NCBI GenBank assembly: GCA_051362555.1
Contig: CM120648.1
Coordinates: 5,018,587-5,082,586, forward strand
Origin: Lingula anatina
Taxonomy: Eukaryota > Animalia > Brachiopoda
Direction of reading: 5' to 3'
DNA length: 64,000 nucleotides
Every line of letters starts with the position of its first letter. The first letter of the stretch is position 1. The translations under genes and the position numbers were made by a program. A model generated the notes under the pieces. It had not been told where the DNA came from. It made no database searches and saw nothing but the letters and a program-made list of their open reading frames with translations. Positions 19,101 through 43,100 of the stretch are shown one piece after another.

Positions 19101-22100
19101 GCACATGCTGCTAGCTGGACTATTCTAATTCTTTCATTTATTAAAACAGCTTCCATAAAAAAAAAATAAAAAATTTTTTAAAAGCAGGTCCAAAAAATGT
19201 TTCAAAAACATAAGTAAATAAGCATTAATATAAGAATAAAAGGGGGTGGAGACATCTTTACACTGTATTTTAGAAATACACTGAATACAACAAGGCAAAC
19301 TTTACTCAACTCCTATGAAATATACTTTTGTCCTCCTTTGAATACCTTGAATATTTTCATTCTCTTTCCAATACATAAAGCAAGTTTTATGATCAAACAC
19401 TCCAAACCCTATAAGCACAAAAAACATTAATGTATACAGTAAAGAAGTTCAATGAAGTGTTGCTTATTTGTTCCTAAACATTCCACACCCACCCAAAGTG
19501 CCAATAGTACAGAATAAATATAATGGGTGAAAAACCACAGTTAATCTTGTTATATTAACAACAGATTAACATCTTTAAAAGAAAGTATCAGAGAACAAAG
19601 AGACTAAAGATTAGAATTTAAGCTTCCTAAAATAATGACAAATAAATAAATAATTATGACAAAAATAAAAAATGAAATAAAATAAATAAATAAGAAAATA
19701 ATTTTCGACCCTGCAGGCTATTTGAACTTAGTCATGTAACATACCCATTCATACCTCTACCTGGCAACACGACCCCCTGACAGGTCTCAACTGACTGATA
19801 AATCATATACTGAGCCTAGAGTGACTGAAATTAGACTGCATCTCTACAACTGAGTCAATGCACTGCCTGTCTTGCCAAATAAATTGGATGGGTTTTACTT
19901 CACAAAGCATTTTTAAACTGTATGCTTTTTTTGTTGTTGTTCAATGAAGTTGGAGCTTAGATTTTTTTGTCTAAAAATCTTTACTAGTATATATTATCTA
20001 TTAAAATTACCACAATTTATAAACTGTAAATGGACCTTTGTATATCAATTCATATATATTTTTTTTAATTGTGGGAATAAAAAATAATCTCACTGCAACT
20101 TTTATAAAACTGTTTACATTTTGACAACATTAAAGTTCATAAAGAGATCTGCATATCAAAACTACTCAATCAATGCACAAGAGTAAAAAAGAAATCAGTT
20201 CATTGAGACCTGTCCCCCACCCCTTAAAGATCCACATATAAAAGAAATGCCACAGTATTAAAAGGTCCTTCCTGTGGCAGTAAGAGACAAAGTAAACCAC
20301 TGACCAATCCTCATCCAACTGTAACTAATAATTCACCAAGGAACAACAGAAATATCATCATGAAGACTGTCGTCTGCTTCTGCGTCACGTTAGTTGTGAT
20401 GTGCATTGCCATCGCCAACCAAAGAGCTGAGGCTTATCACTGGTTTGGGAGATCTCAAGCAGGTAGGTGTTTGAAGACGATTAAAAAATAACAATCAGTG
20501 ATGATAAAATGGGTCTTTATTGCACTATGTTAACAGAAACACCTCAACAATATAAAGCAGGGGATTCCTTCAATGCCGCAGAGGTATTGTTTTGATAAAC
20601 CCTTGACACACCTTCTTCCAATATTTACCATAAACTCAACAACAGATTATAGAATTTTTTAAAGAGTTGCCGAAGGTCATCTCCTGAGGTATGCCAAGGT
20701 CTGGCGGTAAAATATTACATATCTATAATGTCAGAGGCTGGGGTCTTCTCCCTACAACAAACTTAGCTACTAGTATTTATGTAAAATGAATATTATGAGT
20801 GTTTCTGTTAGAGTAACTGTCATATTTCTAATGTATGCAGCATATATGTGTATATTTTGCAAGTTATGTTTTGCCCTTGCTGATGACTTAGCACAAAATT
20901 GATGACAACATAAAAAGATGAAATTTGTATATATTGCACAATGGCATAGATAGTATTTGTAAAAAAAAATTGTTATTAGCTTTTACCTCTTAACTAAATA
21001 CCAATTTCCAAATCATATTATTATACTAAATAAGGATTTGATATTAAAATTCTAATTTGTAAGATTTTCAATGGTCTAGAATTCAAACCATAAACAATTC
21101 CTTAAACAGTAGAAATATCAAAGCTTAGTTAACTGAACTTAACAATCAGTCACCTTCATAATCATGATCTTTTAAAAACAAGAATACTCCAGCGCCTTTA
21201 TCTGAAGTGCTGCCTTCTTAATTCAAGACATCACACAACCACACATAACCTCTCATCAGCGACAGTTACGTACAGACGCTTAAGTTTTCGACCAATTTTT
21301 TGAAGAAGATAAGAAAAATGTTGACAAAATTGTGGTGAGGGAAGCTGGAAATTTGAAGTTAGTTCCAAATTTGTTTTGTAACAACCAGAGAATAAAAAGA
21401 GCCATGAGAACAAAAGACTGTTAATAAAATTTCAAACCAACCATGCAGAGTACAGCAAATGGGAATTCACAGCAAGCTTCAGACATATAACTGAAAAATT
21501 TAATTTTTTATTCTTTTGCCCTATTTCTAGTCTAATCATTTAACCAAATTTCAATGCAACCACCGTGCTTGCATTTTTAAACAATCTTTATTTGACGTAA
21601 TTATACACTGTACAGGGGCGGATTTAGGCTGTCTTCTGGGTCTTCTGGAAGACGGTCAGTTTTTCAAGTTTACATTGTCAGCCATCTAATGTTTTCTGTC
21701 GGAAGACGGTCAAAAATGGAAGATGGATCAACAAAGATAATTTGGAAGACTGTCAGAAAATATCTCTGGATCCGCCCCTGCTGTAAGAAAGCTGTTTGTA
21801 AGAAATGATTGACTCAATAGAAAAAAAAAGATAATGAACTCTGATTGTACTAGTACACTCATGCTTAGCATACACATAGTTACATGTAGGTTTGCACAAA
21901 ATAAACAGATATATCACATGAAGAAAATCAAAGACATGATATAATTTGCATCATGTTGATTTGAGACAAAACATGCACCCTATTCTGTAAAGTAAACTCA
22001 AAATACAATTAAATTCATTCCTTTTATGAAAATATTATTCTTATATAATATTGTGTTCTAAAGGCACAAGAAATGTTATCAGAATTCATACTCGGGATTT

Positions 22101-40100: not shown

Positions 40101-43100
40101 TATTTATTTTTCTATTTATGGAATCTTGCTTACATTACATAAATACAAAAATAAATAAAAGGAGTTATGAGTTACAACAAACACTCACTCCCTGTCTTCC
40201 CTTATAATTTTGTAAGATTCAGAAAAAGACAAAAAAATTAAGAACCACTGAAAAGAAGTTGATGTAAGAGTGAGTGTTTCAACCAAATCTACAGTATCAG
40301 AATAAACATCACATTATCTCTTCAATATCCAATAGACAAACATCGGTAATTAACTCTGCGACCACGGACAATACTTAGAATTAAGCAGACGCAGATTGAA
40401 GGAATAATATTAACACATGAAACGTTGTCATCAGGTTCAGCTGAATTAGCAGTTACTCCATTATTTGTCGTTTGGAAATAGATTGAAGGAAGAACAATAT
40501 AATATCCCAAGCAAACTCCGTCATCTGATTGAGTTGAATTAGCTGTGGCGGTCTTATTTGTAATTTCCGATTTGGGAGACAAAGTGGGATTGGATTCGTT
40601 CTATTGAGCAAAGAGACAGGACACAATAGACTCTGTGCTTGAAAGACAATAACGACATGAGTCAAAGGCGCCCATGTGATCAAATGAAAAGCTCCAAGAA
40701 TACTAGGTCTGGACGATCTAATTCACATACTGAAAGCACAAAAATTCATGTAATGAAAATCCGTCACAAAATTTGCACTCCAAGTCGATTTTTATAGGTT
40801 TTTGCTTAAAGGTGCTCTGGAAGTATTATTCTTTTGCTTCCGTGACTTATTCAAAGAGACATCAATGACAGACACCATATGATTTGTTGGCACTTTTGTG
40901 TCCCCTCAGATAGAGGCTATATGTTTGTTATCACTGCATTCAAAGCGGATGTGTAACTTTTTATGATCTGCAGTATAGATGTATAATTAGTAGTTGCTTC
41001 ATTCTGCATATTCCATCAATTACCTCACTCAATTTAGCACCGCTGCGTTTAATACACATGTTTTAATTAACCATGAGAATATTTATTAACACAATTTCCT
41101 TGATATCAGACAGATCAATGCTTCAATTTCTATTTCCTTTTGCTTCATTTCTCTCCGTTTCATGTGTCAAAAAGAATCATTAATATTTGTCACAATTACA
41201 TTTTATCACCTTATTTTGATAGAAGTTGCTATTCATATGAAAAACAAGAATGTCAGAAAGCCATCTGATTGAATATGTGTGTAACATGACAATCACATTT
41301 TATCTTTTTTCCTTCTAAAGAAACAGAACCTCTAGATGGTATAAGCATGCATATTAGCCTCCTTACCATTTGTTTTTCAAAATACAATAGTTTACTTATT
41401 TATTTTTCTATTTCTTCACTAATTCATTTTCATTTACTTATTTGTTATTTTATAATATTGTACTTAATTAGTTTTTAGTTTCTTTATTCATTCATTCGCT
41501 TCTTTATTCACTGAAAGAGAGAGGTTTGAAATGGAGCCTCACCTTCCTTACATAAAAATGATGTACAAGGTGATATAAATCTTTATACTTGTGTCACAAG
41601 ATAATTTCACTCCATTATTTCAATTACATTTACAGTTTCCAACTCAGACGCGTCTTCAGACTCTGATACAAAGTTGGTCTCTTTGTTGCGCCGGCTCTAC
41701 GATGCAGACACCAAAGACGAGAACTTATCAAAGGCCGCCTCCAAAGACGTTTCGAAAAAAGCCCAATCCAGTGCCGAAGATACATTAAAACATGTCTACG
41801 GAGTGCTGAGAGATTATTATGAAAAGAAAACCATCTGAGAATGTATCCATGATTGTAAACTTTCAGAGATATTTTATGTAAGTATGTTTTTGAGTCAGAT
41901 ATATTTTTATTGTAGCAGTAATTATTAGATAAAAAAATACTTTATCATATCTTGTCTGCTACAGGTCTGGTACAGTAAAATTCAAATTAATTTAAGATTT
42001 AAATATTTAATAAAAAATTCTCTGACAGAAAGACAATACTTAACTTGGTTGTCTAAGATAAATAATTCTACTTGAAAATATTTTCTACCATAAGCTTAAT
42101 CCATATCTGATATACATGTATAGCAAAGAAAATATGCATTGCCAATTAAATATCTAAAAATGATACTTAATCCCTGTTTCTCTGCTCTTTATTTTTTCTT
42201 TTATTCCCAATCTTCTTCCTCTCTCTCTCATTCTCTCTCTCTTACACACACAACCAAGCATGCATTCATTTTTTTTTGTCATACTCCCTCTATCCTCTCC
42301 TACTTCAATAAATAACAAATAAACTCCTTAATATTTTCCTTTATTTTCCAGATACTCAGCATAATAAAGGACATGTGATCTCTCTATGCACTGCTGACAC
42401 CTAGTGGACAACACAGAAAGCACATCACGACAGCCTGTGGCACAAGTTTTATTCGTAGAAAAAGTTGTAGATGACAACTCAAGAAGTATAGTTGCTTTTA
42501 CTGAACATGGTATAAACACCTGTATTCATTTTCTGCCTGCTTTTCTTCCAAGTGTAAACTATCAAGACTCGAGACAAAAAACAGAAAAAGAAGAAAAAAG
42601 GACAAGACACTCCACTGATTCTAACAAAAAGACTTGTATTTTGAAACTTTATTTGTTTGCATGCATATGCTTATTATGATAAAGATGAAACGTTTCAAGA
42701 AAGTTTTACCTTTGTGAAACCATCAAATAAGACTTCACAAATAAAATTTTAATGGAGCCTGTGACCTTGACCTGTATGTAATTTCACAAGTAAATTTAAA
42801 GGGGCACCTCTGTCCTTGACCTGTCTTTCACAACATTGTCATTACTCAACTTTCCAACCTCTATGATACACTGACATATTAGAGCTCAGAGAAAACACTT
42901 GTAAAGATATGGAAATCATTCTTAGTATTGTATAAATTTTTTCTTCGATTGTGTAAATGCTTGATTTTGATTTGTTATAGCAATGACAATGCATACAAGT
43001 AAAGTATGTAACTAACAAAAAAGAAAAAAAAAAAAGAGTCGCAGCAAGCATATTTAGAGTGACCTCGAGATTTTAATAGTTTTGAAATTTTCTTCACTAA

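What the first reader, a model, noticed from the sequence alone, without database searches (positions are those of the whole stretch)
20360..41838. Hidden nested neuropeptide-like gene predicted to release YHWF-amide
Seen: a TATA box, an exon encoding a hydrophobic signal peptide ending in AEA followed immediately by YHWF-G-R, a clean phase-1 donor, and 21 kb downstream a phase-compatible exon completing a 101-aa precursor with RR/KK sites, then a spliced 3' UTR exon. The true frame is absent from the ORF track. Established: Gly followed by a basic residue is the convertase/PAM amidation signal; molluscan NdWFamide (Asn-D-Trp-Phe-NH2, cardioactive) comes from a short precursor with one copy right after the signal peptide. 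Inference: this is a WFamide-type peptide with an unusual YH- N-terminus and a monobasic site, possibly an NdWFamide relative and possibly D-isomerised. Cleavage at AIA instead would give [15 protein letters not shown].
Basis: partly seen in the sequence, partly recalled or inferred. Interest (0 to 1): 0.85.

Follow-up and report, generated by a model that had tools for sequence, protein, structure and literature searches.

The report
Two-headed NdWFamide-type neuropeptide gene
A small transcribed gene on the opposite strand of what is likely a chloride-transporter intron uses two different first exons spliced to one shared exon, so it is predicted to make two different short amidated signalling peptides, likely of a known family that includes a snail heart stimulant.

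Summary
RNA reads confirm exon A (20360-20462) spliced across 21 kb onto exon C (41636) in 3 of 4 runs, and the 3' UTR splice. It has its own TATA box, hydrophobic leader, A-V-W-Y-G-K-R motif and phase-1 donor, and it also splices to exon C (4 reads). One gene thus gives two precursors (101 and 98 aa), predicted to release YHWF-amide and (A)VWY-amide. It lies antisense in a likely 33-kb CLC-6 intron (homology only). Layout and a C-terminal helix match published NdWFamide precursors, 5 of 20 of which begin H-W-Y, so the family link is likely and the H is not new. New here: the extra residue, the single-Arg site and the two peptide-bearing first exons. Cleavage, amidation, D-isomerisation, tissue and function are untested. 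No database homologue was found and the animal's class was not determined.

The parts
20237..20243 (+). TATA box of promoter A (inferred)
   Evidence: Sequence; read starts pile up at 20280-20286 in X7, X8, X9
20280..20462 (+). Exon A: about 80-nt leader, CDS 20360-20462 (predicted signal, Y-H-W-F-G-R), phase-1 donor
   Evidence: 110/117/115 reads in X7/X8/X9, 0 in X3; loose ends at 20462 match exon C
20435..20452 (+). Codons for Y-H-W-F-G-R: predicted YHWF-amide with amide donor and single-Arg site
   Evidence: Translation; read variants His>Asn at 20438 (9 of 59 reads, X7) and a silent change in Phe
36694..36700 (+). TATA box of promoter B (inferred)
   Evidence: Sequence; 36725-37074 has no ATG, against 0 of 406 overlapping intronic windows of 350 nt
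36725..37168 (+).
   Evidence: Joint 37168->41636 GT..AG, 4 reads from 2 starts in X2; leader covered at depth 3-5 in X7
41636..41877 (+). Exon C, shared: 66 codons of C-terminal associated peptide with two amphipathic stretches, stop 41836-41838, start of 3' UTR
42352..43140 (+). Exon D, shared 3' UTR (end approximate; AATAAA at 42363, 42740, 43443)
   Evidence: Joint 41877->42352, 82 reads from 54 starts in X7; coverage to beyond 43130
12174..45445 (-). Host intron (33,272 nt) of a CLC-6-type chloride/proton exchanger gene, inferred from homology
   Evidence: Flanking exons align in order to human CLC-6 733-763 (E 0.97), 768-800 (E 0.13) and 802-843 (E 2.3e-12), phase-0 junction; host splice not tested with reads

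Best explanation
This is one transcribed gene whose two alternative first coding exons (A, 20360-20462; B, 37075-37168) each splice onto one shared exon, and it is likely an NdWFamide-family neuropeptide gene predicted to release a different short amidated peptide from each exon. Shown: both splices, open frames, plus-strand transcription, a TATA box ahead of each exon. Inferred: each exon has its own promoter; signal peptidase exposes the peptide; a convertase cuts at Arg (A) or Lys-Arg (B); carboxypeptidase and PAM give YHWF-NH2 from A (my odds: 60% cut after A-E-A, 30% after A-I-A giving a longer peptide) and AVWY-NH2 or VWY-NH2 from B. Both would be co-released with the same helical C-terminal peptide. 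The likely origin is duplication and divergence of the promoter-signal-peptide exon inside a long host intron, where the shared phase-1 intron makes either copy fit. The likely effect is two ligands under separate control, acting as neuromodulators or neurohormones on a GPCR.
For: A->C: 133 reads in 3 of 4 runs, agreement 0.98-0.99, carrying the same 41661 variant seen on exon C. B->C: GT..AG joint at the predicted phase-1 site. In X2 the reads on exons B and C have first mates on the minus strand only, the pattern most stranded libraries give for plus-strand RNA. Listed insertions and deletions fall in UTRs or a repeat, none in the coding parts of A or C. No variant row alters W-F-G-R. Only 2 signal+W[FY]G[KR] frames exist in the window, both in this gene, against none in 100 of 100 simulations. 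All 20 distinct published precursors that I read have one aromatic tripeptide plus G-K-R straight after the signal. By eye 17 of 20 carry a C-terminal helix pattern that exon C also matches (119 of 100,000 shuffles; 23 of 100,000 with an N-terminal extension, the only such hit in six frames). No second copy of exon C exists in the window.
Against: No homologue was found by sequence search (Pfam only sub-threshold hits). The helix pattern was written after seeing exon C, and exon C fails the stricter form (Val for Ile). None of the 20 published precursors has a single-Arg site or a fourth N-terminal residue, and exon A has no basic residue at -4, -6 or -8, which a recalled rule favours for single-Arg cleavage. 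B->C rests on 4 reads from 2 starts in 1 of 4 runs. The two junctions were not seen in the same run: A->C comes from study P3, whose reads differ from the window at many fixed sites, and B->C from study P1; exon A was not tested in X1, X2 or X4. Exons A and B show no DNA similarity above shuffles (377 of 500 shuffles score as high), so duplication is not shown. No SignalP, peptidomics or tissue data.
Confidence: 0.78

Rival explanations
1. Exon B is the ancestral neuronal form, and exon A is a later recruit that drives strong expression in a non-neural secretory tissue (gland, gonad, skin or gut), as in the venom-gland isoform of the Conus textile NdWFamide gene.
For: B keeps the family's G-K-R. 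A is divergent and variable: 7 amino-acid-changing read variants in 34 codons. In X7, A has depth of about 88 and the B leader 3-5 (different likeness cut-offs). X3 has no A reads, while X2 of the same study shows B. Precedent: PMC13542836 passages.
Against: Tissues are unknown. The multi-allelic sites in P3 suggest pooled animals rather than a gland. A keeps the family H-W-F core and has an N-W-F variant. In Conus the new exon is described as 5' UTR only.
Confidence: 0.15
2. The A form is not processed to YHWF-amide. The single Arg is not cut, or the signal is cut after A-I-A, so A yields a longer peptide (10 residues amidated, or about 27 residues to the RR site), and only B gives a short amide.
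For: A-I-A and A-E-A both satisfy the (-3,-1) rule. No published family member read has a single Arg.
Against: G-R is unchanged in the reads while neighbouring codons vary. Three gastropod precursors have 24-residue leaders ending V-H-A, A-D-A or T-E-A, like the 25-residue A-E-A leader.
Confidence: 0.25
3. The gene is an independent small secreted-peptide gene whose aromatic-amide motif resembles NdWFamide by convergence.
For: No search hit. A V-W-Y-amide ending also occurs in a longer ctenophore peptide.
Against: Precursor layout, length and C-terminal helix all fit the family.
Confidence: 0.1
4. Two separate tandem genes, or an assembly artefact joining two alleles.
For: The two junctions come from different studies and haplotypes.
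Against: A reads run into exon C and into nothing else; there is no second exon C in the window; A and B are unlike each other; X7 has reads on both first exons.
Confidence: 0.04

Closest known systems
NdWFamide precursor family of molluscs, nemerteans and phoronids (PMC6425005 supplementary file 3 part 132; PMC8557429 supplementary file 1 part 18)
   Same: Short precursor; one aromatic peptide plus Gly and a basic site right after the signal; C-terminal helix pattern; H-W-[FY] core as in the Lottia and Phoronis precursors.
   Different: All 20 read have a tripeptide plus G-K-R. Here A is predicted to give a tetrapeptide plus G-R, and B has Val where the family has Asn or His. I saw no pair sharing a C-terminus under different N-termini in those lists.
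Conus textile NdWFamide gene with a venom-gland isoform (PMC13542836, passages and section 9)
   Same: [quoted passage not shown]
   Different: There the new exon is described as a unique 5' UTR; here each first exon carries its own signal and peptide. The supplement could not be read and may bear on this.
Alternatively spliced insect neuropeptide genes: DH37/DH47, DH31, calcitonin A/B, locust myosuppressin (PMC6585902, PMC4237046, passages)
   Same: One gene yields several peptides through alternative exons.
   Different: In the passages read they share the upstream or signal exon and switch downstream exons; here the signal-plus-peptide exon switches and the C-terminus is shared.
Variable-first-exon loci such as UGT1A and clustered protocadherins (recalled, no call)
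   Same: Separate promoters and variable first exons spliced to constant exons.
   Different: Large enzymes or receptors in long arrays, not a two-exon peptide switch.

Membership tests
NdWFamide precursors | N-terminal signal peptide in a short precursor | tested here: inconclusive
   Hydrophobic cores and (-3,-1) sites in A and B; 101 and 98 aa; SignalP not available
NdWFamide precursors | Single aromatic peptide with a W-[FY] core plus Gly close behind the signal | tested here: met
   H-W-F-G in A and V-W-Y-G in B; family lists
NdWFamide precursors | Mature peptide exactly three residues starting with Asn or His (20 of 20) | tested here: not met
   Tyr cannot serve as the -1 residue, so A keeps at least four residues unless trimmed; B has Val. 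A read variant gives Y-N-W-F
NdWFamide precursors | Dibasic G-K-R site (20 of 20) | tested here: inconclusive
   Met by B, not met by A (G-R-S)
NdWFamide precursors | C-terminal amphipathic helix, hydrophobic at 0, +3, +6, +7 and W/Y at +10 (17 of 20 by eye) | tested here: met
   Relaxed pattern matches exon C; 119 of 100,000 shuffles match; the strict form with Ile at +3 fails; pattern is post hoc
NdWFamide precursors | Significant sequence or profile similarity to a member | tested here: inconclusive
   Exon-level searches found nothing relevant; they reach only close relatives; no family profile was run
NdWFamide precursors | Same intron position and phase as known genes | not testable with these tools
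   No annotated animal genomes; a phase-1 first intron 50-100 nt into the CDS is common to secreted proteins
NdWFamide precursors | D-Trp, amidation, neuronal expression, cardioactivity | not testable with these tools
   Aplysia D-residues lie at position 2 or 3; its isomerase converts Phe, Tyr, Trp and Leu at position 2; His and Val were not among the residues tested

The most novel reading that the evidence does not exclude
A neuropeptide gene has duplicated only its promoter-signal-peptide exon, giving a two-ligand switch on a constant C-terminal helical peptide. One form (YHWF-amide, with a YNWF variant) has been recruited to a new, possibly non-neural secretory role, in parallel with the Conus NdWFamide venom isoform. 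The shared helix is the part needed for sorting or isomerisation, and the gene's seat in the CLC-6 intron is an ancient marker for the family across spiralians.
Probability: 0.15. Interest if true: 0.72.

Novelty: new variant of a known kind. Interest (0 to 1): 0.48.

Why it matters
It gives an RNA-supported case of a peptide gene that switches its signal-plus-peptide exon and keeps the C-terminus, the reverse of the splicing pattern in the insect examples I read. It supplies natural variants (YHWF, YNWF, AVWY/VWY) for testing receptor and L/D-isomerase specificity in a family whose receptor I did not find named in the papers read. If nesting in the CLC-6 intron is conserved, it offers a way to find these short, easily missed genes in other genomes.

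Tried and rejected
Homologue searches: exon C, 1 candidate, none scored; exon B read-through among longer proteins, no candidate; phmmer on 1.84 billion representatives gave 2 hits, both tandem-repeat proteins with summed weak matches, rejected; metagenome contigs, 0 of 596 pattern matches confirmed; Pfam, nothing above cut-off for A, B or C. ESM Atlas gave no result. No whole genome is held. The look-up of sequencing runs: no RNA holder listed; the 9 runs came by species label, and 6 of 9 were laid (X1, X2, X3, X4, X7, X8, X9 minus none on both stretches except X7; see next sentence). The A->C junction exceeds the 20-kb lay limit and was read from loose ends. In one search, 34 loose-end rows and 21 variant rows were not shown; X1 and X4 showed no joint. 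A private second exon for A: no paralogue of C; 6 of 55 acceptor-like sites have 40 or more open codons, and reads support only 41636. A third peptide exon: none on a wider motif scan. Taxon: the neighbouring TRIM protein gave 35 hits at 22-31% identity, uninformative. Literature: of six peptide names only VWYamide (ctenophore) and NWYamide (scallop) were found, 2 papers; no paper held all four terms on alternative first exons in molluscs; none of 25 listed of 161 held 'alternative first exons'; none of 20 listed of 30 held CLCN6; searches showed no matching case in their listings. Most subscription papers, including the original Aplysia and Lottia ones, are outside the library.
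Full report
Observation. A scan for Met + hydrophobic core + W[FY]G[KR] finds two sites in the window and none in 100 of 100 Markov-simulated windows. It encodes a second hydrophobic leader followed by A-V-W-Y-G-K-R and ends in a phase-1 donor. It has its own TATAAAA at 36694 and a 350-nt stretch without ATG, which 0 of 406 overlapping intronic windows show.

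RNA. Nine raw-read runs were offered by species label, and 7 of 9 were laid. On 36400-43300 (X1, X2, X4, X7; likeness 95) two joints appear, both GT..AG: 37168->41636 in X2 (4 reads, 2 starts) and 41877->42352 in X7 (82 reads, 54 starts). X1 and X4 gave no joint. On 19750-21550 (X3, X7, X8, X9; likeness 85) exon A has 110, 117 and 115 reads in X7, X8 and X9 and none in X3. Read starts pile up at 20280-20286 and depth ends at 20462. There 31, 48 and 54 reads go on with one consensus that matches the first 30 bases of exon C at 25 positions. It includes the 41661 variant seen on exon C, and its first 14 bases occur once in the window. Both junctions are therefore real. Limits: B->C is thinly supported; the two junctions were not seen in one run, although X7 has reads on both first exons; and study P3 differs from the window at many fixed sites and shows three haplotypes at 20383-20387, which suggests pooled animals of another population. 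Read differences cannot be told from editing without matched DNA, but their varied kinds suggest alleles. Listed indels avoid the coding parts of A and C. No listed variant changes W-F-G-R, and a minor one (9 of 59 reads in X7) turns His into Asn, giving Y-N-W-F.

Context. Minus-strand exons of a CLC-6-type exchanger flank the gene: 45635-45446 and 12173-12066, phase 0 on both sides, 33,272 nt apart. They align in order to human CLC-6 residues 733-763 (E 0.97) and 768-800 (E 0.13), and the next exon to 802-843 (E 2.3e-12). The first two scores are weak alone; order and contiguity carry the case. An upstream exon hits Voltage_CLC. The host splice was not tested with reads. An intronless TRIM/NHL frame (14766-16724, plus strand) shares the intron. 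An earlier AI note (e1-7275343) reports an NdWFamide-like gene antisense in a CLCN6 intron in another genome, called an annelid; I did not test it and treat it as a lead.

Mechanism. Shown: two first exons, one shared coding exon, one shared 3' UTR exon, products of 101 and 98 aa. Inferred from established prohormone processing: signal removal, convertase cut, carboxypeptidase trimming and PAM amidation. A most likely gives YHWF-amide; A-I-A is the rival signal site. B gives AVWY- or VWY-amide, or a longer form. The single Arg in A is the weakest step, because a recalled rule favours a basic residue at -4, -6 or -8 and there is none. Aplysia D-residues lie at position 2 or 3, and its isomerase accepts Trp at position 2 (PMC11277431 passages), so D-Trp is possible but unshown. 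Origin by duplication of the first exon is inferred; A and B have no DNA similarity above shuffles. A phase-1 intron just behind the signal is common in secreted-protein genes and eases such exon exchange (PMC13542836 section 9).

Comparison. I read the NdWFamide blocks in PMC6425005 (supplementary file 3, part 132) and PMC8557429 (supplementary file 1, part 18): 22 entries, 20 distinct. All 20 have one aromatic tripeptide plus G-K-R directly after the leader, and 5 begin H-W-Y. By eye 17 of 20 carry a C-terminal helix pattern. Exon C matches its relaxed form (119 of 100,000 shuffles; 10 six-frame hits in the window, 1 with the N-terminal extension) and fails the strict form. The pattern is post hoc and no profile test was run. 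Database searches found no homologue. It works like an NdWFamide gene and is likely a divergent member (about 85%), but it does not meet the tripeptide rule, and form A lacks the dibasic site. The nearest structural precedent is the Conus textile NdWFamide gene, whose venom-gland isoform uses a new exon in a 17-kb intron, described as 5' UTR (PMC13542836 passages; its supplement could not be read and may bear on this). Insect cases in PMC6585902 and PMC4237046 (passages) switch downstream exons instead. Also seen as passages: PMC5996578, PMC4200219, PMC5455113, PMC9525235 and bioRxiv 10.64898/2026.02.02.703354. Searches for the peptide names and for this layout found no matching case, within an open-access library only.

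Verdict. The animal's class was not determined; a spiralian is inferred from the family match. New variant of a known kind; interest 0.48.

Noticed in passing
window 10960-11644 (-): A 77-bp tandem array (8.9 copies) repeats the splice acceptor and first codons of the CLC-6 CBS2 exon; only the last copy continues into the full exon, so the spliceosome faces a row of decoy acceptors.
   Followed up: partly
window 14766-16724 (+): Intronless RING/B-box/NHL TRIM frame, also antisense in the CLC-6 intron; 35 relatives at only 22-31% identity. Expression not tested.
   Followed up: partly
window 21613-21781, 37665-37833, 47604-47763, 52632-52858: Dispersed repeat of about 170 bp, abundant in RNA reads from other loci; one copy lies in each intron of the peptide gene's first-exon region.
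   Followed up: no
window 29822-30034 / 48551-48764, 17759-17939 / 53812-53998, 35098-35215 / 55163-55287: Further dispersed repeats, 77-89% identical.
   Followed up: no
window 44016-44135, 40088-40170, 22476-22573, 17901-17979: Inverted-repeat (hairpin-like) elements; the first lies in a 16-bp tandem array at 43849-44131.
   Followed up: no
window 500-7100 (+) and 61280-64000 (+): Exons that look like phosphatidylinositol synthase and a peroxiredoxin-like (PRXL2) gene, labels recalled and without Pfam support on the fragments; enolase is supported by Pfam.
   Followed up: no
window 20360-20462 and 41636-41838: Study P3 reads differ from the window at many fixed sites (9 or more in 200 coding bases of exon C) under the same species label: a diverged population or cryptic species.
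   Followed up: partly
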